This document shows positions 1,185 through 42,869 of a stretch of 64,000 nt of DNA, one piece after another. The notes beneath the pieces are model-generated. The model had not been told where the DNA came from, searched no databases, and saw only the letters and a program-made list of their open reading frames with translations. This DNA comes from Chloroflexota bacterium (GTDB lineage Bacteria; Chloroflexota; Anaerolineae; Anaerolineales; Anaerolineaceae), in the NCBI GenBank assembly GCA_012799995.1, contig JAAZKE010000025.1:6847-70846 (forward strand), written 5' to 3'. Numbering within the stretch: the first letter of the stretch is position 1; the number at the start of each line of letters is the position of its first letter. The position numbers were made by a program, and so were the translations under genes.

Positions 1185-1584
1185 AATACCTCCAAGTATT
1201 GAAAAAATTATATACAATCTATATTCAAAACTTCATTTTTTGTCAATAGAATCATTGGCTTATTTTACACCTTTTTCAGTCTAATATGCAAATTCAGGAA
1301 AATAATCACTATTTTTTCAGTTTGGCATGAATTTGGCACATTATTATACAAATCTATTCATTTTTTTTGATACCAGTATTTTAACGTGATTATAGAACTT
1401 TTTCAAGTACCTGTATGGGTCCAATATATTGAGAGACACTGGTTGCGGATTATTCAATAGACCATAAAATCCCACAAAAAAACATTCCAATCCGTCACAT
1501 CACCCGAATAATTCAATCAATCAAGAAAATAAGCTAAGTTGGACTATAATGGTCAGATATTTGAAAAAGCATTCCGGAGGAAAC

Positions 1585-4044
1585 ATGCAGCAAAAGATTG
1601 TTCCGATTTATGAACCAGTTAAAATCGAGAAAAAATGGCAGAAAACGTGGGAAGATCTTAATCAGCACAAGGCTGTTATAGATCCTGATAAACCCAAACA
1701 TTACGCGCTCACCATGCTCCCTTATCCATCCGGAAATCTTCATATCGGGCACTGGTATGCCATTACACCATCCGATGCCCATGCGCGCTTTATGCGTATG
1801 AACGGGTACAACGTGATGTTTCCAATGGGTTTCGATGCTTTCGGTCTTCCAGCTGAAAATGCAGCGATTAAGAACAACATCCACCCGAAGCAGTGGACGT
1901 TCCAGAACATTTCCCATATGCGCGAACAGCTGAAGACCATGGGATGTATGTTTGACTGGGATCGAGAGATAATCAGTTCGGAACCGGATTACTACCATTG
2001 GACACAATGGTTCTTCCTGAAACTGTACGAAAACGGATTGGCTTATCAAAAATTTTCGCCGGTGGATTGGTGCCCAACATGCAATACGACTCTCGCCCGC
2101 GAACAGGTTTGGGGAGATGATCGCCATTGTGAACGCTGCGAAACACCTGTTATTAAAAAAGATTTGAATCAGTGGTATTTCAGGATTACAAATTACGCTG
2201 ATGAGCTGAGGAGTTTTGATGGAATTGACTGGCCAGAGCGCGTTCAGACGCTGCAAAACAACTGGATTGGGAAATCATTCGGTGCGCTGGTTACGTATAA
2301 AACCGAATATGGCGATCCCCTGGAAGTATTTACCACCCGTCCGGACACATTATGGGGTGTAACATTTATGGTTCTCGCCCCTGAGCATCCGCTGGTTGCA
2401 AAATTAACCAGGAGCGAAAACAGCGAAGCGGTACAAAAATATATCGACCAGGCAAAATTCCACACTGATATTCAGCGGGAATCGCTTGACCGCGAGAAAA
2501 CCGGTGTCTTCACCGGCTCCTATGCTATCAATCCTGTGAACGAAGAGCGCATTCCGATCTGGATTGCCGATTATGTCCTGATGGGTTATGGGACAGGCGC
2601 GGTAATGGGCGTGCCGGCGCATGATCAGCGCGACTTCGAGTTTGCCAGAAAGTTCGGACTCAAAATAAGGGTAGTAATCCAACCTGAAGGCACCGAACTC
2701 CTTGATGCAGATACAATGACCGCTTCCGTACCTGCGATTGGGGCGATGGTAAATTCAGGTGATATGACTGGCACTCCGGGAGATGAAGCCATCGACAAGG
2801 TAATCGACTGGCTGGAAGAAAGACAGATCGGCAAACGCACCACTACCTATCGGCTGCGCGACTGGCTGATCTCACGCCAGCGGTACTGGGGCGCTCCAAT
2901 CCCGATCATCCACTGCCCAAAATGTGGAATTGTTCCTGTGCCGGAGAGTGAGTTGCCCGTCAGGCTTCCGGATGATGTAGAGTGGAAACCAACCGGAGAA
3001 AGCCCGCTCAGACTCCACCCAACCTGGAAACATGTGAATTGTCCAAAATGCGGAGAACCCGCAGAGCGTGAAACCGATACGATGGACACCTTTATGTGCT
3101 CCAGCTGGTATCACCTTGGATATCTAAGTCCGTATTATCCGAACTGGCCATTCAAACAGGAAGAATACGATTATTGGATGCCAGTCGATATTTACACCGG
3201 TGGTATTGAACACGCTACCATGCATTTGATTTACACGCGATTTTTCCACAAGGCTTTCCGTGATATCGGTATCCTGAAAGGGAACGAACCGATGCTGATG
3301 CTGCGCAATCAGGGCACGGTGTTGGGTGAGGACAACGAAAAAATGTCAAAGAGCCGTGGAAATGTGGTGGATCCTGACAAACTCGTTAATTCCTACGGCG
3401 CTGATACGGTTCGAGCCTACCTGATGTTCTTTGCGCGCTGGGAGTTGGGCGCGCCTTGGAATAGTTCAGGTATTGAAGGATCATCACGCTGGATCCGCAG
3501 GATTTGGTCAACTGTTCTCGAACCCGCCGAAACGAAAAAAAATATTGATCCGGAAGTTTTCAAGGTATTAAAAAGGAGAATTTACCAGACAGTCGCCTCA
3601 GTCACCCGCGATTTTCAACATTTTCAATTCAATACGATCGTTTCCAGTTTGATGGAAATGTTAAATGAAATGATCAAAGCAAAAAATGCCGGGGCTTACG
3701 GGACAACTGAGTGGAATGAGGCTGTTGATATCTACCTCAGGCTTGCTGCTCCGATTATTCCACATATCACCGAAGAACTATACGCTCTGTTAGGGAACAG
3801 TGGCTCAATCCATCTCGCTCAATGGCCAGAGATGGATGAAGAAGCAGCAAAAGAGGAATTGATCACATTAGTAGTGCAGATCAATGGCAAGCTGCGCGGC
3901 AGACTGGTTTTACCGGCTGGAAGCAGTGAAGAAGTTGTTAAAGAAGAAGCGATGAAACTGGAGTCTGTATCGGCAATGCTTGATGGAAAAGAACCGAAAA
4001 AATTAATCGTGGTTCCCAACAAATTGATCAATATCGTTGTCTGA
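1585..4044 (+). CDS. leuS: Leucine--tRNA ligase
   Basis: MLPYPSG, HIGH, GFDAFGLPAENAA and KMSKS motifs. Start moved to ATG 1585 behind GGAGG. Confidence 0.97.
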   Translation: MQQKIVPIYEPVKIEKKWQKTWEDLNQHKAVIDPDKPKHYALTMLPYPSGNLHIGHWYAITPSDAHARFMRMNGYNVMFPMGFDAFGLPAENAAIKNNIHPKQWTFQNISHMREQLKTMGCMFDWDREIISSEPDYYHWTQWFFLKLYENGLAYQKFSPVDWCPTCNTTLAREQVWGDDRHCERCETPVIKKDLNQWYFRITNYADELRSFDGIDWPERVQTLQNNWIGKSFGALVTYKTEYGDPLEVFTTRPDTLWGVTFMVLAPEHPLVAKLTRSENSEAVQKYIDQAKFHTDIQRESLDREKTGVFTGSYAINPVNEERIPIWIADYVLMGYGTGAVMGVPAHDQRDFEFARKFGLKIRVVIQPEGTELLDADTMTASVPAIGAMVNSGDMTGTPGDEAIDKVIDWLEERQIGKRTTTYRLRDWLISRQRYWGAPIPIIHCPKCGIVPVPESELPVRLPDDVEWKPTGESPLRLHPTWKHVNCPKCGEPAERETDTMDTFMCSSWYHLGYLSPYYPNWPFKQEEYDYWMPVDIYTGGIEHATMHLIYTRFFHKAFRDIGILKGNEPMLMLRNQGTVLGEDNEKMSKSRGNVVDPDKLVNSYGADTVRAYLMFFARWELGAPWNSSGIEGSSRWIRRIWSTVLEPAETKKNIDPEVFKVLKRRIYQTVASVTRDFQHFQFNTIVSSLMEMLNEMIKAKNAGAYGTTEWNEAVDIYLRLAAPIIPHITEELYALLGNSGSIHLAQWPEMDEEAAKEELITLVVQINGKLRGRLVLPAGSSEEVVKEEAMKLESVSAMLDGKEPKKLIVVPNKLINIVV

Positions 4045-17708: not shown

Positions 17709-18128
17709 TCAGGCATGAATCCCGCCGGATTCGCCTCGTTCTGACTTTTGAGCGAATAAATTCGCCAGCGGTACCGTTTCAACCGCTGGCGTCTCTATTG
17801 GTACAACCAGCAGTTGGGCAATCCCACTCCCTGCCTCAATTGAAATCGGAAGCGCAGAAGGGTTGATGATTTTCACCTTGATTTCACCCTGGTATCCGGC
17901 ATCAACCACACCGCCGCCTAAAATGTAATTATTACGACTTTTAGGCAATATCAAACCAACATAACCATCAGGGATATCAAGGGCAATGCCCGTTCGAACG
18001 CTCACAGAGGATTGTTTTTCGATTGTCACCGCTTCCAGAGAATACAAATCCAACCCGGCATCGGAAGGATGTTTGCGCGTCGGAATAACAGCAGCAGCTT
18101 CAATTTTCGCAATCCGAATCTTTTTCAT
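17709..18128 (-). CDS. dut: dUTP diphosphatase
   Basis: DAGLDL, TGI, GGVVDAGYQGE, AQL and C-terminal RGE.GG motifs. Confidence 0.88.
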   Translation of the reverse strand: MKKIRIAKIEAAAVIPTRKHPSDAGLDLYSLEAVTIEKQSSVSVRTGIALDIPDGYVGLILPKSRNNYILGGGVVDAGYQGEIKVKIINPSALPISIEAGSGIAQLLVVPIETPAVETVPLANLFAQKSERGESGGIHA

Positions 18129-18245
18129 GAAAATACCTGCCTTATTTCTTGAATTTCATCTATTCTACTCCGGCTAAAAAATTCGATGTCACTATTTTTT
18201 CGGAATTCTTATATTTCTCTTGCATTTCAGGTAAAAATAAGAGGC

Positions 18246-18317
18246 ATGAGTAACGTATCAATTCGATTTATCCAAATTACCACTACTACCACTACTTTCG
18301 AGAAGCCCTTGAGATGA
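18246..18317 (+). CDS. thrL: Thr-rich attenuator leader peptide (23 aa, MSNVSIRFIQITTTTTTFEKPLR)
   Basis: AAGAGG SD, six consecutive Thr codons plus 3 Ile, directly upstream of a terminator and the ask-asd-hom operon. Confidence 0.88.
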   Translation: MSNVSIRFIQITTTTTTFEKPLR

Positions 18318-18345
18318 GGTAGATTTTAGCATTTGGTTTTACAGG

Positions 18346-18377
18346 AAACTGCCTCATCAAACAGAGGCAGTTTTTTT
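18346..18377 (+). terminator. Attenuator terminator of the ask-asd-hom leader
   Basis: AAACTGCCTC-ATCAAACA-GAGGCAGTTT then TTTT. The 5' arm can alternatively pair with GATGAGGTAG at 18313-18322. Confidence 0.9.
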
Positions 18378-18405
18378 ATTGAAAATATTATAGAAGGAAT
18401 CGCTT

Positions 18406-19836
18406 ATGGAAAATAATTTTGTTCCCCAGGACGTGTTGGTTATGAAGTTTGGAGGTACTTCTGTCGGTACGGTTCAGTCTATGAAATCGACCATTCAGAA
18501 TATCAAACGATGTAAAGCGGAACGACCGAATCTGGTAGTGGTTACATCAGCCATATCCGGCGCAACGAACGCACTGATTAAAAGTGCAACGGACGCTGCA
18601 GCCGGCAATCTGACAACGGCTGAGAAAACTACGCGTGAACTTACGGCTCGCCATCATGAGATGATTGACAAGCTGGTCAATGACCCCAACCAGTGGCTCC
18701 AGCTTAAGATGGACATCAACCGCATGCTTACAGATTTCTCCAATTTCTGCAATGCGATCAAAATTTTGGGGGAATTAAGTCCACGGGCGCTTGATATTGT
18801 TTCCAGCCTGGGTGAACGGATGGCAATTCGTGTCCTCGCTGCGGGCGTGAGTTCAGCTGGTGTTCCAGCCAAAGCAGTAGAAGCCTCTGAATTGATCCTG
18901 ACGGATGATGTTTTCCAAAGCGCGTCACCTGATATGGTGCGTACTGCCGAAAAATGTAAAAAACATTTGTACCCCTTACTTGAACAGGGAGTAGTCCCGA
19001 TCGTAACCGGTTTTATGGGTGCGACTGAAGATGGCATCATCACCACATTGGGTAGAGGCGGAAGCGATTATTCAGCTGCAATCATTGGTGTTGGATTGGG
19101 AGCAACCGACGTCTGGATCTGGACTGATGTAACCGGCGTGATGAGCGCTGATCCGCGGATCATCAAAGACGCCCACACCATCCCTTACCTGACCTTCAGT
19201 GAGATTTCCGAGATGGCTTTTTACGGTGCCAAAGTGCTGCACCCCAAGAGCGTCAAACCCTGCGTGGACAATGACATTCGTATGCGCATCTGTAACACCT
19301 TCTATCCCGATAAAATGGGCACCATTCTGGTAAAGGATTCCGAAGCCAGGGACATTGGCAAGATCAAGGCAGTCACTTCTGCCAGTGGTTTCAAACTGGT
19401 ACAGGTCGCCGGTGCCGGTATGGACTCCGGCATGGCAGTGTCCGCCAAAATTCTCAGTTCACTGGTAGATCAGGGGATTAACGTTCCCATGGTTATCGAA
19501 AGCTCATCCGAACAAGCAATTTGCTTCCCGGTAGAACTTAAAAAAATAGATAAAGTAAAAAAGACGCTGACCAGCGTTTTAGAGAAAGAAATTCAACATG
19601 AAGATATTGACCTGATCACCGTCAGCGATCAGGTTGACATTCTGACAGTGATCTGCTCCGGGCTGAAATCACATCCGGAAGTAATTGCACAAACCTTAAA
19701 TGGAATGGTTGAGAAAAAGTTTGATATCAAAGCGATGTCTTTTGGCCCTTCGGACGTATCGCTCAATTTAATCGTCAATTCAGCCGACACCAATGCGGCT
19801 TTGAATACAATCCACCAATTAATTCATAATGACTAA
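18406..19836 (+). CDS. Aspartate kinase with ACT domains
   Basis: MKFGGTSVG, VVTSA, GER, TTLGRGGSDYSAA, WTDV.G..SADPR and GAKVLHP motifs. Confidence 0.93.
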   Translation: MENNFVPQDVLVMKFGGTSVGTVQSMKSTIQNIKRCKAERPNLVVVTSAISGATNALIKSATDAAAGNLTTAEKTTRELTARHHEMIDKLVNDPNQWLQLKMDINRMLTDFSNFCNAIKILGELSPRALDIVSSLGERMAIRVLAAGVSSAGVPAKAVEASELILTDDVFQSASPDMVRTAEKCKKHLYPLLEQGVVPIVTGFMGATEDGIITTLGRGGSDYSAAIIGVGLGATDVWIWTDVTGVMSADPRIIKDAHTIPYLTFSEISEMAFYGAKVLHPKSVKPCVDNDIRMRICNTFYPDKMGTILVKDSEARDIGKIKAVTSASGFKLVQVAGAGMDSGMAVSAKILSSLVDQGINVPMVIESSSEQAICFPVELKKIDKVKKTLTSVLEKEIQHEDIDLITVSDQVDILTVICSGLKSHPEVIAQTLNGMVEKKFDIKAMSFGPSDVSLNLIVNSADTNAALNTIHQLIHND

Positions 19837-19847
19837 GGAGAAAGATC

Positions 19848-20909
19848 ATGAGTTCTAAAATTCCCGTTTCTGTATTAGCAGCCACAGGCAGCGTTGGCCA
19901 GCGATTTATCAGCCTTCTCGATAATCACCCCTGGTTTGAAGTAGTTGAGATCACCGCCTCTGACAAATCAGTCGGTAAACCTTATGAAGAAGTCTGTCAC
20001 TGGCTCCTTTCTGAATCGATGCCAGAATATGTAAAAAAGATGGAACTTCTGCCTACTGAAGCTGCATCGCTGAAGAATTCAAAGATTGCTTTCTCAGCAC
20101 TTCCGGCCGAAATCGCTGTTGAAGTTGAACCGACGATTGCAAAAAAAGGAATTTATGTCAGCTCTAACGCGTCTTCCTATCGTAAGAATCCGCTGGTTCC
20201 CATTCTCGTTCCTGAAGTGAACCCTGACCATATGATGATTCTGGAAGATCAACAGAAGAGTTATGGCTGGAGTGGCGGTATCTTCACCAATCCGAACTGT
20301 ACCACAGTTGGATTCGTCGTCCCATTGGCAACGATTGATCGGAAGTTTGGCGTGAAAAAAGCTTTCGCTTTCTCCATGCAGGCAGTCTCCGGCGCAGGTT
20401 ATCCAGGGGTCGCTTCAATGGACATTTTAGATAATGTTGTTCCGTATATTGGCGGGGAAGAGGAAAAGCTGGAATATGAACCGACTAAAATCATGGGCTG
20501 TTTTAAAGATCACAAGATTGAGAATCATCCAATCGTGATTTCTGCGCATACCAATCGGGTGCCTGTCATTGACGCACACACCATCTGCCTATCATTCTCT
20601 ACCAATGAGAAAACCGATGTTGATAGTATCATCAACGCGCTCGAATCCTATGAATTCCCAGATCTTTGTAAAGACTTGCCCAGCATTCCTTCAAAAGGTA
20701 TTGTTTATCACAGAGAACCAAACCGACCGCAACCACGGCTTGATCGCTCCACATATGGCGGAATGGCAACCCATGTTGGTCGGGTACGCCCGGACCATAT
20801 TCTGGATTTCCGCATGGTTTCTGTCTCTCATAACACAATTCGTGGCGCTGCTGGTGGCTCCATTGTCAATGGCGAATGCCTGGCAGCCTGGAAATTCGGT
20901 AAGCGTTGA
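19848..20909 (+). CDS. asd: Aspartate-semialdehyde dehydrogenase
   Basis: ATGSVGQRF, SNAS..R, NPNCTT, QAVSGAG.PG and HNTIRGAAGG motifs. Confidence 0.95.
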   Translation: MSSKIPVSVLAATGSVGQRFISLLDNHPWFEVVEITASDKSVGKPYEEVCHWLLSESMPEYVKKMELLPTEAASLKNSKIAFSALPAEIAVEVEPTIAKKGIYVSSNASSYRKNPLVPILVPEVNPDHMMILEDQQKSYGWSGGIFTNPNCTTVGFVVPLATIDRKFGVKKAFAFSMQAVSGAGYPGVASMDILDNVVPYIGGEEEKLEYEPTKIMGCFKDHKIENHPIVISAHTNRVPVIDAHTICLSFSTNEKTDVDSIINALESYEFPDLCKDLPSIPSKGIVYHREPNRPQPRLDRSTYGGMATHVGRVRPDHILDFRMVSVSHNTIRGAAGGSIVNGECLAAWKFGKR

Positions 20910-20920
20910 GGGGGCAGAAT

Positions 20921-21937
20921 ATGAAAACAGTAAAACTTGGAATGATTGGTTTTGGGAACGTGGCCAAGGGATTTCTGGAAGCGCTCCAGCAGATGGATTC
21001 CTTCTATAAGTCTGAATACGGGCTTGAATTTGTGGTTACAGCCGTAGTCAGTCAACGATTCGGCTGTGTCTACAACCCGCAGGGACTTTCGCTGGAAAAA
21101 TTAATAAAAGCTGAAAATCTGTCCCAAATTAAGGATGTCGAGCGCAAAGACTGGAATGCAATTTCGATGATTCATCAGTCAGAATCAGATGCAATCCTTG
21201 AACTAAGCTCGACCAATCTGGTCAACGGTAATCCCGCAACGCTGCACATCCAGGAAGCGCTGATGTCTGGCAAGAACGTCGTAACCAGCAACAAGGGACC
21301 GATTGCGTTGAATTTTGATGACCTGCAAAAAATTGCAGTACAAAATAATCTCAAAATCGGATATGAAGCGGCCGTCATGAGTGGTACCCCTGCGCTGATG
21401 TTGGGAACTGATCTGTTACGTCACAATGGGATTCTCTCTGCAAAAGGTATTTTTAACGGTACCTGCAACTATATTCTCACTGAAATGGAAAAAGGATTGG
21501 AGTTCGATGAAGCGCTCAAACTCGCCCAGGAATATGGATACGCAGAGACCGATCCTTCAGGTGACGTAGAAGGGCTGGACACAGCTGGCAAAGTGGCAAT
21601 CCTTTCGCAAATCATATTCAACCAAAATCTCACACCGGATAAATTCGAATTCAGCGGGATTACGAAAATTTCGAAGAAGGATATTGAGAACGGGTTGAAA
21701 GAACAAAAGCGGTGGAAACTGATTGGTGAAGTTAAAAAGGTCGATCAGGAAATCATCGCCAGCGTGAAAGCACAACTATTGCCAATGTCGGACCCGCTTG
21801 CAAATGTGATGGGGGCAACGAACGCAATCCAGTACGAGACAAAACTGCTTGGGAAAGTGACGCTGGTAGGTGCTGGCGCCGGTCGGCTGGAAACTGCAGC
21901 TGGTATTTTGCAGGATCTGATTAATATTTACAAATAA
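20921..21937 (+). CDS. hom: Homoserine dehydrogenase
   Basis: GFGNV, VVTSNKGP, E.AVMSGTP, NGTCNYIL, GYAETDP..DVEG.D.A.K and GAGAGR.ETA motifs. ATG at 20921. Confidence 0.93.
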   Translation: MKTVKLGMIGFGNVAKGFLEALQQMDSFYKSEYGLEFVVTAVVSQRFGCVYNPQGLSLEKLIKAENLSQIKDVERKDWNAISMIHQSESDAILELSSTNLVNGNPATLHIQEALMSGKNVVTSNKGPIALNFDDLQKIAVQNNLKIGYEAAVMSGTPALMLGTDLLRHNGILSAKGIFNGTCNYILTEMEKGLEFDEALKLAQEYGYAETDPSGDVEGLDTAGKVAILSQIIFNQNLTPDKFEFSGITKISKKDIENGLKEQKRWKLIGEVKKVDQEIIASVKAQLLPMSDPLANVMGATNAIQYETKLLGKVTLVGAGAGRLETAAGILQDLINIYK

Positions 21938-32306: not shown

Positions 32307-35042
32307 TCAGCTGATTGACTCCAGATAGGGGATAACTGAGTCGATTGCCATTTGGGCTTTTCCAACATCCTTCCCACCCCCTTGTGCCATATTCGGTCGA
32401 CCGCCGCCTTTTCCGCCAACAATTTCCGATACCCGTTTGATTATATTTCCAGCATGGATTCCCCGCTTCACAACCGAGTCAGACACCGCGGCGATGAAGA
32501 TAACCTGTTCATTTTCAATTGTTCCCAGAACGATTACAGCGTTTTCAAAAGATTCTTTAAATTTATCTGTCATTGCCCGCAGAATGTCTGGCGATGTATC
32601 AGGCACCATGCTGACCAGTACGTTGAGGTCATTTACTTTCACAGTCGACTTAAGTGTCTTATTGAATTCGCTCAAAGCCATTCGCCTCTTGAGTTGTTGA
32701 ATTTCCTGTTCTGAAAGATGAAGCTGACTCAACAGCTCTTCCACCTTCTGAACAATACCTGATTCTCTGGCATTCAGAATTGAGGTAATCTGCTTCATAT
32801 TCTGCACAGCCTTAAGCGCATATTCAGACGCAGCATGACCTGTAATCGCCTCAATACGGCGCACGCCGGTTGCGATGCTGCTTTCAGAGAGGATAAAGAA
32901 GGAGCCAATTTCATTGGTATTTGAGACATGCGTACCACCGCACAGTTCAGCTGAAAAGATTCCATCGCCATCCTTCACTCTGACTACACGAACAACCTCA
33001 CCATACTTTTCATCGAAAATGGCAGTAACCCCTTCATCCATCGCCTGATCGAGGCTCTCGATATCTGTTGTCACAGCTTTAGCCGCGAGGATCTGATCGT
33101 TGACAATCTTTTCAATCTTGCTGAGTTCTTCCGTTGTCAAAGCGCGCGACGAATTGAAGTCAAACCGTAAGCGATCATAAGAAACCAGCGAGCCTGCCTG
33201 ACGCGCATCTTCACCAAGCACCTGACGAAGCGCAGCGTGCAACAGATGGGTTGCAGTATGGTTTCGCATGATATCCTTACGGCGATTACGATCGACGTCA
33301 ACGGTGATTTCCTGCCCGATGTGAATTTCACCGGAAACCAGCTTGCCTTTATGCAGAATCATCCCGGCAATTGGTCTGCGTACTGACTCCACCTGGAAAC
33401 AGGTTGTGCCATCATCCGAGGTGATCTGTCCGATGTCACCAATTTGACCACCCATTTCAATATAAAAATTGCTGTGATCGGTGACAACTTCGCCACTTTC
33501 TCCCTCTTTCAGGTTGGTAACCGTTTCACCATCTTTCATTATCAGCACTACGTGGGTTTGAACAGCATCGTGTCGGTAAGGATCATTTCGAACACCATCC
33601 TCATCTAACGCCCCACCAGTTTTTAATTCCTGCAGCAGCTGCGATAAATGTTCCGATTCCTCTCCTCCCATGCTGCCTATCGCTTTTCCAGCTCCGGATG
33701 CGATACGATGGCGCTCATTTGAGGCTTTGAAACCCTCGCGATCCACGTCAAAACCATGCTCGCGAACAATATCATAAGTGATTTCCAATGGCAAACCATG
33801 GGTGGAATACAAGTCAAAACTGACTTCACCATCCACCACTGTTTCGCCTTTTTCTTTCATCGAATGTATGACCTGATTGAGAACTTCAATGCCATGTTCC
33901 AGCGTCTTATTGAAACGTGCTTCTTCCATCTGAATTGAACGCAGGATCGAGTTCCGCATGCGCTTCAATTCCGGAAAAGCTTCGCCATAATTCTCAATAA
34001 CCACCTCGGCGATTTTATCCATAAAACCATCGCGCAAACCGATCTGCTGACCAAAACGAACCGCTCTGCGAATAATCATCCGACATACATAATTCCGCCC
34101 GATGTTTCCAGGGATGACACCGTCTGCGATCAGGAATGAAGCGGCACGGCTGTGATCCGCAATCACACGATAAGGGGTAAAGTCCTTCTTCATTTCTTCA
34201 ACCGATGTTCCCGCCAGACTACGAATTTTTTCGATCATCGGGATAAACAGATCGGTTGTGTAGTTTGAGTCGGCATTTTGCAGTATGGAGACAATGCGTT
34301 CGAATCCCATACCGGTATCAACGTAATGCTTCTTCAGAGGAATAAGTGTATTTTCATCTTGTCGATTGTACTGAATAAAAACCAGGTTCCAGATTTCAAG
34401 GAACCGGCTGCAGTCTCCATTTACATGGCACACATGCCCGGGCACATGCTGCTTATCACAGCGTTCTGGCCCCAAGTCTACATGAATTTCACTGCAGGGA
34501 CCGCAGGGGCCGGTTTCTGCCATTTCCCAGAAATTCTCTTTCCGCCCGAAATAGAGGATTTGATCCGGGTTGATTCCCGGCTGTTGTTTCCAGATAGAAT
34601 AAGCTTCTTCATCGGTGGAGACTTCATTCTTGTCATCTTTGAAACAAGTCGTCCATAATCGCGATTTGTCGAAGCCCCACACTTCCGTCAGTAATTCCCA
34701 CGCCCATTCGATCGCTTCTTTTTTGTAATAATCCCCGAATGACCAGTTTCCAAGCATTTCAAAAAAGGTATGATGTGAGTCATCACGACCGACTTCATCA
34801 AGATCGTTGTGTTTTCCAGCCACCCGCATACATTTTTGCGTATCACAGGCACGGGTATAGGGTCTGACGTCGGTTCCCAAGAATACATCCTTGAACTGAA
34901 CCATACCAGCATTAGTGAAAAGAAGCGTCTGATCACCGGCAGGTACCAGAGAAGCTGAGCGCACCTCTGTATGACCTTTTCCGACAAAAAAATCGATAAA
35001 CTGCTGACGAATCGTTTCTCCTGATAACTTTTTGTTCCCCAT
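32307..35042 (-). CDS. alaS: Alanine--tRNA ligase
   Basis: TLLFTNAGM.QFK, H.TFFEMLGNWSFGDY.K, DTGMG.ER, NHTATHLLH, ELCGGTHV and GGGR..MAQGGG motifs. Confidence 0.97.
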   Translation of the reverse strand: MGNKKLSGETIRQQFIDFFVGKGHTEVRSASLVPAGDQTLLFTNAGMVQFKDVFLGTDVRPYTRACDTQKCMRVAGKHNDLDEVGRDDSHHTFFEMLGNWSFGDYYKKEAIEWAWELLTEVWGFDKSRLWTTCFKDDKNEVSTDEEAYSIWKQQPGINPDQILYFGRKENFWEMAETGPCGPCSEIHVDLGPERCDKQHVPGHVCHVNGDCSRFLEIWNLVFIQYNRQDENTLIPLKKHYVDTGMGFERIVSILQNADSNYTTDLFIPMIEKIRSLAGTSVEEMKKDFTPYRVIADHSRAASFLIADGVIPGNIGRNYVCRMIIRRAVRFGQQIGLRDGFMDKIAEVVIENYGEAFPELKRMRNSILRSIQMEEARFNKTLEHGIEVLNQVIHSMKEKGETVVDGEVSFDLYSTHGLPLEITYDIVREHGFDVDREGFKASNERHRIASGAGKAIGSMGGEESEHLSQLLQELKTGGALDEDGVRNDPYRHDAVQTHVVLIMKDGETVTNLKEGESGEVVTDHSNFYIEMGGQIGDIGQITSDDGTTCFQVESVRRPIAGMILHKGKLVSGEIHIGQEITVDVDRNRRKDIMRNHTATHLLHAALRQVLGEDARQAGSLVSYDRLRFDFNSSRALTTEELSKIEKIVNDQILAAKAVTTDIESLDQAMDEGVTAIFDEKYGEVVRVVRVKDGDGIFSAELCGGTHVSNTNEIGSFFILSESSIATGVRRIEAITGHAASEYALKAVQNMKQITSILNARESGIVQKVEELLSQLHLSEQEIQQLKRRMALSEFNKTLKSTVKVNDLNVLVSMVPDTSPDILRAMTDKFKESFENAVIVLGTIENEQVIFIAAVSDSVVKRGIHAGNIIKRVSEIVGGKGGGRPNMAQGGGKDVGKAQMAIDSVIPYLESIS

Positions 35043-40210: not shown

Positions 40211-41701
40211 TTAAGCCGCCTTCAGCATCTTTTCCGCGTTCTTTATGCGTTCAAGAACAACATCCTGTCCGATGATTTCCATACTTTCAAACAGCGGCGG
40301 GCTGATCTTTTGTCCCGTTACTGCTACACGCAATACACCAAACACCTGAGCCGGTTTTAATGCCAGTTCTTCAACTAAAGCTCGCATTTCCGGTTCGCCA
40401 TGATCTTTGTCAATAACCGGCAGCGCAGACAAGATTTGATAGCTTTTCGTAGCGATATCAGCGCATTGTGCTGCGTCTAATCCCTTCTGAACCAGGTCTT
40501 CTAATTTTGGATGAACTTCCTTTTCGAAGAAGAAACCGGCAATCTTGGGTGCCTCGTCCAATCCTGCAATCCGCTCCTGGATGATGGGGGTGATTTTTTT
40601 CAACGTATCCAGATCAGCCGTGTATCCATCAGCTTCAAAGTAAGGTTGAATCCTCTGTGCCAGATCATCAATCTCAAGCATTCGGATGTGAACACCATTG
40701 AAATAGTCCAGTTTGGTGAAATTAATCGCAGCTGGCGAAGGATTGAGATGTTCCAGTGAAAAGGCATCGATCAGCTGACTCATATTGAAAATTTCGGTAC
40801 GGTCGTCATAACTCCAGCCCATCAAGGCAATCCAATTCGTAACGGCTTCATCGACGTACCCGAGATCCTTTAGATCGGTCAGGAAAATAGAATATCCGTC
40901 TTTAATCAAATCTGCCGACTCACGTTTGGACATTTTCCCTTTCCCACTCGGTTTAAGGAAAACCGATAAATGGATCCAAACTGGTTCATCCCAACCGAAT
41001 GCCTTTAGAATCAGGTGATGTAAGGGCAGAGTTGGGATCCATTCAGATCCGCGGATCACATGGCTGATTTTCATCAGATGATCATCCACCATTGCTGCCA
41101 GATGATAAAGCGCCCAGCCATCTGACTTTACGATAATGTAGTCGTCGATAGTCTTGTTCTCAACTGTGATCTCCCCTCTCAGCAAATCACGGACGGTTGT
41201 AGTTCCCTCTTTTGGAGTCTTGAACCGAATCACATAACTTTCTCCGGCAGCAATGCGTTTGCGTGCCTCTTCAACCGGAATATCGCGGCAAAGACCGTCA
41301 TAATGAGGAAATTCTTTCCGTTGCTGCTGGAGACGCTTCATCTCACTTAAACGGTCTGTGCTGCAAAAACAATAGAAAGCATCGCCCTGGTCAATCAGTT
41401 GCTCTGCGTAGCGCTGATAAATCTCTTTTCTTTGTGACTGCCGATAAGGACCATAAGGTCCCCCTTTGTCAGGCCCCTCATCCCAGTCGATCCCCAGCCA
41501 GTGAAGCCCATCGATAATTTCCTGTTCTGCAGTTTCCACATAACGTTTCTGGTCGGTATCTTCTATCCGCAGGATAAATTTCCCGCCCATTTTTTTCACC
41601 AGCAGGTAATTGTATAAAGCCGTCCTGCCGCCGCCCAGGTGCAAACGACCGGTCGGGGAAGGGGCAAAGCGAACGCGAACTTCTTTTTGATTTTCAGACA
41701 T
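40211..41701 (-). CDS. gltX: Glutamate--tRNA ligase
   Basis: RVRFAPSPTG.LHLGG, LRIEDTD, PYRQS.R, H.IRG.EW and KMSKR motifs. Start at ATG 41701. Confidence 0.96.
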   Translation of the reverse strand: MSENQKEVRVRFAPSPTGRLHLGGGRTALYNYLLVKKMGGKFILRIEDTDQKRYVETAEQEIIDGLHWLGIDWDEGPDKGGPYGPYRQSQRKEIYQRYAEQLIDQGDAFYCFCSTDRLSEMKRLQQQRKEFPHYDGLCRDIPVEEARKRIAAGESYVIRFKTPKEGTTTVRDLLRGEITVENKTIDDYIIVKSDGWALYHLAAMVDDHLMKISHVIRGSEWIPTLPLHHLILKAFGWDEPVWIHLSVFLKPSGKGKMSKRESADLIKDGYSIFLTDLKDLGYVDEAVTNWIALMGWSYDDRTEIFNMSQLIDAFSLEHLNPSPAAINFTKLDYFNGVHIRMLEIDDLAQRIQPYFEADGYTADLDTLKKITPIIQERIAGLDEAPKIAGFFFEKEVHPKLEDLVQKGLDAAQCADIATKSYQILSALPVIDKDHGEPEMRALVEELALKPAQVFGVLRVAVTGQKISPPLFESMEIIGQDVVLERIKNAEKMLKAA

Positions 41702-41741
41702 GTTTTTCAACTTTCTATCGTTAAATTTTTGATAATCTGTT

Positions 41742-42869
41742 TTACAGGTTATCTTCCTTTTGTTCCTGACGCGATACAATGCTCTCTACCAGTCCAATTG
41801 CGGTTGACAAAGCCAGTGTTGAAGAACCGCCATAGCTGATGAATGGCAACGTCAAACCGGTTACTGGGAGAACTTGCAGGTTTACTCCAATATTAACCGC
41901 CATTTGGAAGGAAATCAATGTTGCTACCCCATAACAAATGAGTGCGCCAAAATAATCCGGTGCGACGCGTGCAGCACGCAGACAGCGAAACACCACGAAC
42001 AGCAGCAACAGCGTAACAGTAACTGTTCCGACCAGCCCAAATTCCTGACCAAGCGCTGAAAAAATAAAATCGGTATGACGCACCTTGAGGAATCGCAGCT
42101 GAACCTGGGTTCCGTTCATATATCCCTGACCAAACCAGCCTCCAGACCCCAACGAGATGACTGCCTGGTCAACGTTATATTTATCACCGTATCGCGCTGT
42201 TTCATCCGGTGCAAAGAAAGTTCGCAGCCGGTTTAACTGGTATTCCTGGATGAATGGAATGGTATCAGGAGAGACAAACAGCCAGATTACGATTCCAATC
42301 AGGATCAAAAAGCCAACGATTCCCAAAATGAGCAGATGTTTTCCTTTCACATTGCTCACCCACAACATCGAGAACCAGATGACCATCATCACGATGGAAG
42401 TACTCATGTTCGGTTGAAGCAAAATGAAAGTTGTAATTACCATTGCAATCAGGAAGCTGTTCAGAATCCAGCGGAAATCATGGTTCGAATCCTGTCGGTC
42501 GGAAAAATACTTCGCCAGCCGTATAATCAAAATAATTTTGGCAAACTCAGAGGGTTGTAGACGAATCGGACCGATACTGAGCCATCGAGCAGAGCCAAAA
42601 GTAGCAGTACCAAAAATCCGCAATGCAAACAACAGCACAATGATCCCGATATACAACAAATTCGCAATGGAATCGAGATAGTGATAGTCAATCAGAGTCA
42701 GAACAATAATGCCGACAATCCCAATCCCAACATAGAGGATCTGGCTGTCAATGCTGACTTCCAGGTTGCCTGCAAGCGCTGACTGGATCATGATGATCCC
42801 GAAAATAGCTAGAATCACCACCACGCCAAACAGCCAATAGTCAAAATTTCGTAGAATACCTTTTCTCAT
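41742..42869 (-). CDS. rodA: Rod shape-determining SEDS protein
   Basis: ARW...G...LQPSEFAKI, QP..ST, GSGG..GQG....TQ, HTDFIF..LG.EFG and TG.TLPFISYGGSS motifs; follows the PBP2 gene. Confidence 0.92.
   Translation of the reverse strand: MRKGILRNFDYWLFGVVVILAIFGIIMIQSALAGNLEVSIDSQILYVGIGIVGIIVLTLIDYHYLDSIANLLYIGIIVLLFALRIFGTATFGSARWLSIGPIRLQPSEFAKIILIIRLAKYFSDRQDSNHDFRWILNSFLIAMVITTFILLQPNMSTSIVMMVIWFSMLWVSNVKGKHLLILGIVGFLILIGIVIWLFVSPDTIPFIQEYQLNRLRTFFAPDETARYGDKYNVDQAVISLGSGGWFGQGYMNGTQVQLRFLKVRHTDFIFSALGQEFGLVGTVTVTLLLLFVVFRCLRAARVAPDYFGALICYGVATLISFQMAVNIGVNLQVLPVTGLTLPFISYGGSSTLALSTAIGLVESIVSRQEQKEDNL

What the first reader, a model, noticed from the sequence alone, without database searches (positions are those of the whole stretch)
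18240..18380. Complete threonine attenuator (Thr6 leader peptide) before ask-asd-hom
Seen: SD AAGAGG and ORF MSNVSIRFIQITTTTTTFEKPLR (ACC ACT ACT ACC ACT ACT, plus 3 Ile). The protector helix is CUAC-UUUCGAG/CUUGAGA-GUAG. The antiterminator is GAUGAGGUAG (18313-18322) with CUGCCUCAUC (18349-18358), 10 bp with one G-U. The terminator is AAACUGCCUC/GAGGCAGUUU followed by U. Established: equivalent to E. coli thrL. Inference: the common aspartate-pathway genes are Thr/Ile-controlled here, not by a lysine or SAM riboswitch or T-box. With the leu leader, this points to genome-wide leader-peptide regulation in this lineage.
Basis: partly seen in the sequence, partly recalled or inferred. Interest (0 to 1): 0.72.

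Follow-up and report, generated by a model that had tools for sequence, protein, structure and literature searches.

The report
Threonine leader-peptide attenuator before ask-asd-hom
A short upstream reading frame with six threonine codons, followed by two mutually exclusive RNA hairpins, very probably switches transcription of three aspartate-pathway genes on when threonine runs low; this is the textbook E. coli thr mechanism, found here as an independent, uncatalogued version in a Flexilinea-like member of the Chloroflexota.

Summary
The uORF at 18246-18317 encodes MSNVSIRFIQITTTTTTFEKPLR. An intrinsic terminator (18346-18377) lies 28 nt before aspartate kinase, followed by asd and hom. A 10-14 bp antiterminator pairs 18313-18327 with 18345-18358, and the stop codon sits inside its 5' arm.

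Comparative evidence supports the attenuator reading. All 16 of 16 Flexilinea-like relatives examined (aspartate kinase 63-87% identical) keep four features:
- a Thr-rich uORF (26% Thr against 5.4% in the window's proteins) whose other residues are not conserved;
- a stop codon within 4 nt of a conserved GAGGYRG;
- a CUGCCUC terminator arm;
- a U-run.

The terminator stem shows compensatory changes. More distant aspartate kinase loci carry Thr/Met-rich leaders whose antiterminator and terminator arms have entirely different sequences but remain complementary.

- The "SD" lies 1 nt from the ATG, is lost in a strain variant and is absent in relatives.
- Isoleucine enrichment is weak.
- The element works like E. 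coli thrL but is not a member of that family (RF00506 scores 20.8 bits; cut-off 55).
- "Genome-wide" rests on two leaders in 64 kb.

No experimental or usable RNA-seq evidence was available. I rate it a new member of a known kind, of moderate interest.

The parts
18186..18215 (+). Candidate sigma-70-type promoter (ATGTCA, 18-nt spacer, TATATT). The inferred transcription start is near 18222, giving a 5' UTR of about 24 nt.
   Evidence: Consensus scan only, 9 of 12 matches. Relatives have clearer TTGACA-17-TAnAAT promoters at the corresponding place. Weak evidence.
18246..18317 (+). Leader-peptide uORF, 23 codons plus UGA: MSNVSIRFIQITTTTTTFEKPLR.
   Evidence: An ATG-initiated Thr-rich uORF is present at the same place in 16 of 16 relatives, with the frame open in all. 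Strain variants change codons 5-8 non-synonymously but leave everything from 18270 on unchanged.
18279..18296 (+). Regulatory codons: six consecutive Thr codons (ACC ACT ACT ACC ACT ACT).
   Evidence: This is the only Thr run of 6 or more in six frames of the window. Thr makes up 26% of residues in the 16 leaders.
18286..18302 (+). Segment 1: 5' arm of the protector (1:2) helix, overlapping the last Thr codons (CUACC ... UUUCGAG).
   Evidence: -11.0 kcal/mol. In all 16 relatives, 4-7 of the 7 segment-2 bases are predicted to pair with an upstream stretch in the uORF region, in several of them a stretch that includes Thr codons. These are predictions only.
18313..18327 (+). Segment 2: 5' arm of the antiterminator (GAUGAGGUAG-A-UUUU). 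It contains the uORF stop codon UGA at 18315-18317.
   Evidence: The GAGGYRG core is conserved within 4 nt of the stop codon in 16 of 16 relatives. It is 92% paired with segment 3, against 27-48% when the partner is slid.
18345..18358 (+). Segment 3: shared arm (GAAACUGCCUCAUC). It pairs either with segment 2 (antiterminator) or with segment 4 (terminator).
   Evidence: CUGCC is invariant and CUGCCUC is present in 15 of the 16 sequences, L092 having CUGCCCC.
18364..18377 (+). Segment 4 (GAGGCAGUUU) and the U7 tract. With 18346-18355 it forms the intrinsic terminator.
   Evidence: -17.4 kcal/mol. Covariation in 16 sequences: 9 cells with changes on both sides, and 0 of 500 shuffles reach the observed score.
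18406..19836 (+). Aspartate kinase (ask), first regulated gene.
   Evidence: NCBIfam TIGR00657, 352 bits, above its cut-off.
19848..20909 (+). Aspartate-semialdehyde dehydrogenase (asd, archaeal/EA type).
   Evidence: NCBIfam TIGR00978, 404 bits, above its cut-off.
20906..21937 (+). Homoserine dehydrogenase (hom), last gene of the operon. The next gene is convergent.
   Evidence: NCBIfam NF004976, 253 bits, above its cut-off. ORF map.

Best explanation
This is a ribosome-mediated (leader-peptide) transcription attenuator that senses charged tRNA-Thr and controls read-through into ask-asd-hom.

Proposed sequence of events:
1. Transcription starts about 25 nt upstream of the uORF, and a ribosome translates the 23-codon leader.
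2. When Thr-tRNA is plentiful, the ribosome runs to the UGA at 18315-18317. That codon lies inside segment 2 (18313-18327), so the ribosome physically covers this segment. Segment 3 (18345-18358) is then free to pair with segment 4, the terminator forms, and RNA polymerase stops at the U7 tract near 18377.
3. When Thr-tRNA is scarce, the ribosome stalls on the six Thr codons (18279-18296), 19-34 nt upstream of segment 2. Stalling there melts the weak 1:2 helix and leaves segment 2 exposed. Segment 2 pairs with segment 3 as soon as segment 3 is transcribed, which pre-empts the terminator, and polymerase reads into ask.

Shown: all sequence parts, their alternative pairings, and their conservation and covariation in relatives.

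Inferred: that the uORF is translated, that termination occurs, and that threonine is the signal.
For: Anatomy in the window is given. No + strand gene ends upstream of the terminator, because dut is divergent, so this terminator can only act on the leader transcript.

Conservation: 16 of 16 Flexilinea-like loci (aspartate kinase 63-87% identical) have a Thr-rich uORF, a GAGGYRG motif at or beside the stop codon, a CUGCCUC arm and a U-run.

Evidence that the uORF is read as codons:
- The frame is open in 16 of 16, against 0 of 16 and 7 of 16 in the other frames.
- The peptide sequence is not conserved apart from the Thr richness.
- Strain variants concentrate in the N-terminal codons and the UTR, with 0-1 changes between 18270 and 18385.

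Structure:
- The terminator stem has both-sided changes, A-U to G-C in 6 of 16 at one pair, and 0 of 500 shuffles reach the observed score.
- The antiterminator is 92% paired against 27-48% for slid controls. Its only variation is pair-preserving (U-G/C-G and A-U/G-U), with one both-sided change in L091.

Geometry: with the transcript cut before segment 4 and a 30-nt ribosome mask, segment 2 pairs with segment 3 when the mask is on Thr codons, in the window and in most relatives. Segment 2 is masked when the ribosome sits on the stop codon in 16 of 16.

Independent support comes from about 16 more distant aspartate kinase loci (40-46% identical). They carry Thr/Met-rich uORFs, and their antiterminator and terminator arms are quite different in sequence yet still complementary, for example CCGUGAGG/CCUCACGG, CCUGUGGGG/CUCCACAGG and GCCGGGGCG/CGCUCCGGC.

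Rfam finds no riboswitch or T-box here.
Against: - There is no experimental evidence. The only RNA data were assembled contigs. One RNA-library contig spans 18339-18547, which shows at most that some read-through exists, or DNA carry-over.
- There is no credible Shine-Dalgarno sequence for the uORF, so translation initiation is assumed.
- The antiterminator core is conserved rather than covarying, so statistical covariation for it is absent within the close clade.
- In full-length equilibrium folds the terminator wins in nearly all masked states. The model therefore depends on co-transcriptional kinetics, as it does in E. coli.
- Without any ribosome, the truncated transcript prefers the antiterminator over the protector helix in this sequence. 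The default state without translation is therefore unclear.
Confidence: 0.85

Rival explanations
1. The terminator/antiterminator switch is real but is set by something other than a Thr-stalled ribosome, such as an RNA-binding protein or a small-molecule-binding RNA. The Thr-rich uORF would then be incidental.
For: The conserved GAGGYRG and CUGCCUC motifs could in principle be protein-binding sites. The uORF has no SD.
Against: - Thr enrichment (26%) and an open frame are kept in 16 of 16 relatives while the rest of the peptide drifts.
- The stop codon tracks the GAGG motif to within 4 nt.
- Distant loci keep Thr-rich uORFs while changing every arm sequence, which argues against a sequence-specific ligand or protein site.
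- There is no Rfam riboswitch hit.
- The spacer between segments 2 and 3 is short (22-40 nt) and not conserved, leaving no room for an aptamer.
Confidence: 0.04
2. The uORF acts as a general sensor of translation capacity, such as ribosome availability or antibiotic or stress stalling, rather than a threonine-specific sensor. Alternatively, it is multivalent, responding equally to Ile (here) or Met/Gly (in relatives).
For: Ile is present at 3 codons here and at up to 7 in L090. Met is interspersed with Thr in many relatives, and T-G-T-G-T-G motifs occur. E. coli thrL is known to respond to both Thr and Ile (general knowledge).
Against: Across the 16 leaders only Thr is strongly enriched (26% against 5.4%), while Ile is 11% against 8.3%. 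The regulated genes make the Thr/Met precursor homoserine, which fits a specific signal. The Gly codons in relatives also create ACCGGU palindromes, so they may be structural.
Confidence: 0.07
3. The short transcript or its peptide is itself the product, that is a small RNA or micro-protein gene ending at its own terminator. The downstream ask would then have its own promoter, so there is no attenuation.
For: Terminated attenuator RNAs and leader peptides can act in trans in other bacteria (rnTrpL/peTrpL of Sinorhizobium, PMC6614838 and PMC7298713). Only 28 nt separate the U-tract from the ask ATG.
Against: - The peptide sequence is not conserved.
- The 28-nt gap has no room for a promoter, and none was found by the scan.
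- The conserved antiterminator, which shares the terminator arm, has no purpose in a plain sRNA gene.
- The element is always found directly upstream of ask.
Confidence: 0.03

Closest known systems
E. coli / enterobacterial thr operon leader (thrL; Rfam RF00506 Thr_leader)
   Same: A short uORF rich in Thr (plus some Ile) sits upstream of aspartate-pathway genes. An intrinsic terminator has a 5' arm that can alternatively pair with an upstream segment. The logic, stall on Thr codons to form the antiterminator and read through, is the same.
   Different: - It is not detectably homologous: 20.8 bits against a gathering score of 55, and the match rests on Thr codons plus a generic terminator.
- It regulates separate ask, asd and hom genes rather than thrA-thrB-thrC.
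- The stop codon lies inside the antiterminator arm.
- There is no usable SD.
- The host is a Chloroflexota (Anaerolineaceae) bacterium.
Classical leader-peptide attenuators outside Proteobacteria: Actinobacteria trp/leu/ilv (PMC1262725), Firmicutes his and leu leaders (PMC2965389, PMC9413887, PMC5794164)
   Same: These are independent inventions of the same four-segment design in other phyla, recognised by comparative genomics in the same way as here.
   Different: They use other amino acids and other operons. That Actinobacteria survey reported no conserved RNA element upstream of threonine operons (PMC1262725). I found no report for Chloroflexota in the searchable library. One non-open survey (Lopatovskaya et al. 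2010, PMID 20198868) could not be read.
Thr/Met-rich leaders upstream of aspartate kinase in more distant metagenome loci (L013-L039, L052 and others)
   Same: The gene regulated is the same, and so is the layout of uORF, antiterminator, terminator and U-run.
   Different: - The regulatory codons are Thr plus Met (for example MTMTTTT) rather than Thr with or without Ile.
- The antiterminator arm lies 12-30 nt inside the uORF instead of on the stop codon.
- The arm sequences are unrelated.
- The ATG lies only about 10 nt after the -10 box, so the mRNA is nearly leaderless.
- Their taxonomy was not determined.
T-box leader (RF00230) upstream of hom-ask in L037
   Same: It controls the same pathway genes by premature termination and senses tRNA charging.
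   Different: It senses uncharged tRNA directly, without a uORF. No T-box is present in the window's leader.

Membership tests
Classical ribosome-mediated (leader-peptide) transcription attenuator | A short uORF with clustered codons for the end-product amino acid, located in the 5' leader of a biosynthetic operon. | tested here: met
   23-codon uORF with six consecutive Thr codons, 88 nt upstream of ask. The run is unique in the window. Thr-rich uORFs occur in 16 of 16 relatives.
Classical ribosome-mediated (leader-peptide) transcription attenuator | An intrinsic terminator (GC-rich hairpin plus U-tract) between the uORF and the first structural gene. | tested here: met
   Hairpin 18346-18373 plus U7, -17.4 kcal/mol. 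Present in 16 of 16 relatives, with compensatory changes.
Classical ribosome-mediated (leader-peptide) transcription attenuator | An antiterminator helix mutually exclusive with the terminator because it shares the terminator's 5' arm. | tested here: met
   18313-18327 pairs with 18345-18358, -16.8 kcal/mol. The core is 92% paired in 16 sequences, against 27-48% for slid controls. Within the close clade it is conserved rather than covarying. Covariation is evident in distant loci.
Classical ribosome-mediated (leader-peptide) transcription attenuator | Geometry: a ribosome at the stop codon covers segment 2, and a ribosome stalled on the regulatory codons leaves segment 2 free. | tested here: met
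   The stop codon lies inside segment 2. The last Thr codon is 19 nt upstream of it. Masked folding gives the expected states. The GAGG-to-stop offset is +1, +4 or -4 in all 16.
Classical ribosome-mediated (leader-peptide) transcription attenuator | A 1:2 (pause/protector) hairpin overlapping the regulatory codons. | tested here: inconclusive
   Upstream pairing of 4-7 of the 7 segment-2 bases is predicted in all 16. In the window this helix is weaker (-11.0 kcal/mol) than the antiterminator and loses at equilibrium. Pausing cannot be tested.
Classical ribosome-mediated (leader-peptide) transcription attenuator | The uORF is translated, and termination responds to charged tRNA levels. | not testable with these tools
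   Only assembled RNA contigs were available, with no 3'-end or ribosome data. There is no credible SD.
Rfam RF00506 Thr_leader (enterobacterial thrL) | Covariance-model score at or above the gathering cut-off of 55 bits. | tested here: not met
   20.8 bits, E = 0.06-0.11, over the full model length. Not reported at the gathering threshold.
T-box, lysine riboswitch or SAM riboswitch control of ask | An Rfam model hit in the ask 5' leader. | tested here: not met
   No such hit at the gathering threshold in the window, nor at E up to 10 in 18100-18450.

The most novel reading that the evidence does not exclude
The window's element may be one representative of a large, uncatalogued family of leader-peptide attenuators on aspartate kinase operons in Anaerolineae-like bacteria. 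Three features would make the family interesting:
- The regulatory codon set has shifted between lineages: Thr with or without Ile here, Thr/Gly in sister lineages, Thr/Met in more distant ones.
- The antiterminator arm has migrated from inside the uORF onto the stop codon.
- The leader peptide is often translated from a leaderless or nearly leaderless mRNA.

Together with the leu leader 18 kb away, this would make classical attenuation a principal amino-acid-sensing route in a phylum where it has not been described.
Probability: 0.5. Interest if true: 0.6.

Novelty: new member of a known kind. Interest (0 to 1): 0.45.

Why it matters
The mechanism is textbook, so the value here is in distribution and evolution.

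- **Reach of classical attenuation.** This gives well-supported comparative evidence for it in Chloroflexota (Anaerolineaceae). These are abundant but poorly studied anaerobic-digester bacteria with almost no known regulation.
- **Annotation.** It supplies a clean new RNA family for annotation: 16 close members plus about 16 distant ones.
- **Predicted physiology.** Flux into the common aspartate pathway (ask-asd-hom) would be set by threonine charging, not by lysine or SAM.
- **Evolution of the switch.** The set of homologous operons with different regulatory codons (Thr/Ile, Thr/Gly, Thr/Met), different arm positions and even a T-box replacement is a natural series for studying how attenuator specificity and architecture evolve.
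- **Translation initiation.** The lack of an SD, and the near-leaderless leaders in relatives, bear on how ribosome loading is coupled to transcription in these organisms.

Tried and rejected
- **Rfam at gathering threshold** on the window gave only tRNAs. In E-value mode the Thr_leader hit is sub-threshold, so it was rejected as evidence of membership.
- **The promoter/terminator scanner** did not list the attenuator terminator, probably because the stem extends into the U-run. I relied on RNAfold instead.
- **RNA-seq.** Five RNA runs hold parts of ask, but only as assembled contigs. Nothing covers 18246-18338, so they carry no information on 3' ends.
- **MAFFT on the natural leader sequences** misaligned the GAGG motif because the spacers vary. 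I used anchored fixed-length constructs instead, so the pair counts depend on my anchoring.
- **Full-length equilibrium folding with ribosome masks** almost always gives the terminator. I rejected it as a test because the decision is co-transcriptional, and used truncated transcripts.
- **A longer in-frame ORF from ATG 18186** (43 aa) was rejected. That ATG lies in the putative -35 box and is followed by a stop codon, or is absent, in relatives.
- **Taxonomy of the Thr/Met group** could not be established. BLAST against named hits and cluster look-ups gave only Flexilinea and Levilinea names for other clusters.
- **A Leu leader upstream of leuS** (1549-4044) was looked for and none was seen.
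- **Literature.** No Chloroflexota Thr attenuator was found in the library. The one survey that might cover it is not held.

Full report
**1. What is in the sequence**

Region 18130-18405 is the divergent intergenic space between dut (minus strand, 17709-18128) and aspartate kinase (18406-19836). Aspartate kinase is followed by asd (19848-20909) and hom (20906-21937), and the next gene is convergent.

On the + strand an ATG at 18246 opens a 23-codon frame, MSNVSIRFIQITTTTTTFEKPLR, ending at UGA 18315-18317. The six Thr codons (ACC ACT ACT ACC ACT ACT) lie at 18279-18296.

Downstream there are three helices:
- **Terminator:** AAACUGCCUC (18346-18355), an 8-nt loop, GAGGCAGUUU (18364-18373) and a U7 tract (18371-18377); -17.4 kcal/mol.
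- **Antiterminator:** 18313-18327 can pair with 18345-18358 (core GAUGAGGUAG/CUGCCUCAUC); -16.8 kcal/mol.
- **Protector:** 18286-18302 can pair with 18308-18322; -11.0 kcal/mol.

Evidence that this is more than chance:
- The Thr6 run is the only Thr run of 6 or more in any of the six frames of the window, and 1.5% of shuffles produce one.
- The terminator motif occurs once in the window and never in 100 shuffles.
- The 156-nt region folds better than its shuffles, z = -2.6.

No + strand gene ends upstream of the terminator, so it can only act on the leader transcript.

**2. The Shine-Dalgarno claim does not hold**

AAGAGG ends one nucleotide before the ATG, whereas SD-like motifs of other genes in the window sit 4-9 nt away. 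Contigs of closely related strains in public metagenomes carry 18241 G>T (AATAGG). Most relatives have nothing SD-like before their leader ATG. Translation of the uORF is therefore inferred from comparative evidence, not from an SD.

**3. Who carries it**

The nearest genomes by aspartate kinase are Flexilinea and Anaerolineaceae MAGs (68-75% identity). Protein clusters at 63-95% identity include sequences named Flexilinea sp.. The window's DNA occurs in biogas-fermenter and wastewater metagenomes.

**4. Conservation in close relatives**

I collected 15 loci with aspartate kinase 63-87% identical to the window's (3 from the genome scan, and 12 through).

Every one has, directly upstream of ask:
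- an ATG-initiated uORF of 23-38 codons rich in Thr;
- a GAGG(C/U)(A/G)G-type motif that overlaps or abuts the stop codon (offset +1, +4 or -4 nt), with the last position varying in four sequences;
- a CUGCCUC-containing hairpin of -11 to -18 kcal/mol, followed by a U-run.

The peptides share no residues apart from the Thr cluster. Examples are MSFKTVFKVHIGTTGTTTIIRNLLN, MKSIFSFSRVKTATTTTGTICIYHP, MRTINRIQSTSITMKTTGTGTGFIHID and MFIRNLTTTLTTTTTATYGLFALS.

Composition and frame:
- Thr is 26% of all leader residues, against 5.4% in the window's proteins. Ile is 11% against 8.3%.
- The uORF frame is free of stops in 16 of 16 sequences. The +1 frame is open in 0 of 16 and the +2 frame in 7 of 16.

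Strain-level variants in the window's own species point the same way. Thirteen differences fall between 18161 and 18269, including four amino-acid changes in codons 5-8. Only 0-1 fall between 18270 and 18385. So the Thr run and the RNA arms are constrained, and the rest of the peptide is not.

**5. Structure tests**

MAFFT misplaced the GAGG motif in natural sequences, so I anchored fixed-length constructs on GAGG and CUGCC.

- **Terminator:** 87.5% of cells are paired. Four pairs show changes on both sides, including A-U to G-C in 6 of 16 sequences at one position. None of 500 shuffles reach the observed pairing, both-sided cell count or covariation score. Slid controls pair at 36-62%.
- **Antiterminator core:** 92% paired, against 27-48% when slid. 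Its columns are almost invariant. The only variation is pair-preserving (U-G/C-G, A-U/G-U), plus one both-sided change in L091, so covariation statistics are not significant.

Within the close clade the evidence for the antiterminator is therefore conservation plus its fixed relation to the stop codon, not covariation.

**6. Independent support from distant loci**

A metagenome scan with an aspartate kinase alignment returned 80 loci (33-49% identity). About 16 of them (40-46% identity) carry Thr-rich uORFs upstream of ask, most of them also rich in Met. Examples are MKSAHFAMTMTTTTSRLSVRNLCLG, MQPATMTTTTMTTTPARAAVASS and MRKNQYTTTQTTTSSRISCGVLVFG. Each is followed by a strong terminator.

In these loci the antiterminator 5' arm lies inside the uORF, and its sequence differs completely from locus to locus while staying complementary to the terminator 5' arm. 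Examples are CCGUGAGG/CCUCACGG, ACCGCGAGGCGUU/AGCGCCUCGCGG, UUCCUGUGGGG/CUCCACAGGA, GCCGGGGCGUU/AACGCUCCGGC and GCAGGCGGC/GCUGCCUGC. This is the covariation that the close clade lacks.

In many of these loci the ATG lies about 10 nt after a TAGAAT -10 box, implying nearly leaderless leader mRNAs (inference).

Loci with aspartate kinase at 33-37% identity lack such leaders. One locus, L037, has a T-box (112.7 bits) upstream of hom-ask instead.

**7. Mechanism**

The geometry fits the classical model.
- A ribosome with a Thr codon in its A site (18279-18296) protects roughly to 18293-18310. It disrupts the 1:2 helix and leaves segment 2 (from 18313) free.
- A ribosome on the stop codon (18315-18317) sits on segment 2 itself.

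Folding transcripts truncated before segment 4, with a 30-nt mask, gives segment 2 paired to segment 3 when the mask is on Thr codons, in the window and in most relatives. The stop-codon mask covers segment 2 by construction, so no antiterminator is possible there in any of the 16.

In full-length equilibrium folds the terminator usually wins. As in E. coli, the outcome must therefore be decided co-transcriptionally.

One weakness remains. Without any ribosome, the truncated window transcript prefers the antiterminator to the protector helix. Whether an untranslated leader terminates depends on kinetic trapping by the 1:2 helix, and that is untested.

**8. Comparison with known systems**

Functionally this is the thrL design. 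It is not a member of Rfam Thr_leader: 20.8 bits against 55, with the alignment resting on Thr codons and a generic terminator. It regulates ask-asd-hom rather than thrABC.

Leader-peptide attenuators outside Proteobacteria are documented for Actinobacteria and Firmicutes (PMC1262725, PMC2965389, PMC9413887). The Actinobacteria survey found no conserved RNA element upstream of threonine operons in that phylum. I found nothing on Chloroflexota in the searchable library. One potentially relevant survey (PMID 20198868) could not be read.

I therefore class the element as a new member of a known kind.

**9. The wider inference**

The leu leader exists. On the minus strand, 325-254 encodes MKTIIQKNLNVLLLSLTDLHQFG (6 Leu in 23 residues). 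It is followed by a terminator (225-200 plus a U-run) and by the start of 2-isopropylmalate synthase at 162.

These are the only two amino-acid biosynthetic operon starts that I recognised in the window, and both have leaders. leuS, alaS and gltX in the window show no T-box at Rfam's gathering threshold and no obvious leader.

This is suggestive. 'Genome-wide' remains an extrapolation that needs the whole genome.

Noticed in passing
window 325-194 (minus strand), with the gene start at 162: Second leader-peptide attenuator candidate. The uORF MKTIIQKNLNVLLLSLTDLHQFG (6 Leu) is followed by the terminator AAAACCACCC-loop-GGUGGUUUU plus U's (225-200), then the N-terminus of 2-isopropylmalate synthase, which runs off the window. 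UUUGGGU at the uORF end, overlapping the stop UAG, could pair with ACCCAAA of the terminator arm and loop. Fold z-score -3.4.
   Followed up: partly
window 18161-18269 compared with 18270-18385: Strain variants in public metagenome contigs (runs X4, X5, X18) cluster in the UTR and in uORF codons 5-8 (S5T, I6L, R7Q, F8S; 18241 G>T destroys the putative SD). The Thr run and all RNA arms are unchanged, apart from 18313 G>A, a change in the terminator loop and one extra T in the U-run.
   Followed up: yes
L013, L014, L015, L017, L018, L020, L022, L024, L026, L028, L029, L036, L039, L052 (upstream of aspartate kinase): Thr/Met-rich leader peptides (for example MTMTTTTS) with unrelated but complementary antiterminator and terminator arms. 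The ATG lies only about 10 nt after a TAGAAT -10 box, suggesting nearly leaderless leader mRNAs. Taxonomy of these contigs is unknown.
   Followed up: partly
L037 85-313: A T-box leader (112.7 bits) precedes a 387-aa ORF (inferred to be hom) that is followed by aspartate kinase, in a more distant relative (aspartate kinase 41% identical). The same pathway genes are thus under a different tRNA-sensing RNA. The specifier codon was not read.
   Followed up: partly
uORFs of L002, L003, L088, L089, L092 (for example L002 1005-1088): A recurrent T-G-T-G-T-G peptide motif is encoded by ACC GGY ACU GGU ACC GGU. This creates ACCGG/CCGGU palindromes predicted to form a small hairpin inside the uORF. The Gly codons may be structural or may be a second signal.
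   Followed up: no
the 16 leader uORFs (window 18279-18296 and relatives): ACU makes up 48% of leader Thr codons, against 21% in the window's genes. ACU-ACC gives CUACC, which is complementary to the GGUAG of segment 2, so codon choice may serve the 1:2 helix.
   Followed up: partly
window 18186-18191 and the corresponding sites in relatives: A TGTCA(Y)A motif is conserved about 55-65 nt upstream of the leader ATG in nearly all relatives that have dut upstream. Read on the minus strand it is GTGACA, followed after 19 nt by TAGAAT, which may be the divergent dut promoter. This was judged by eye only.
   Followed up: no
window 18186-18317: An in-frame ATG at 18186 would extend the uORF to 43 codons (MSLFFRNSYISLAFQVKIRG...). 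It is not conserved in relatives and lies in the putative -35 box.
   Followed up: yes
window 18406-21937: For all three enzymes the top-scoring NCBIfam models are PRK06291 (ask), TIGR00978 asd_EA / PRK08664 (asd) and PRK06270 (hom). From my own knowledge these are archaeal-type models. ask and hom score below the equivalog cut-offs.
   Followed up: no
window 1549-4044 (+), 32307-35042 (-), 40211-41779 (-): leuS, alaS and a Glu/Gln-type tRNA synthetase gene are in the window. None has a T-box at Rfam's gathering threshold. For leuS, the only one whose upstream region I read, no obvious amino-acid-biased uORF was seen.
   Followed up: partly
window 18339-18547: One contig from an RNA-labelled metagenomic library (X26) spans the terminator into ask. 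This is compatible with read-through transcripts, but DNA carry-over cannot be excluded.
   Followed up: partly
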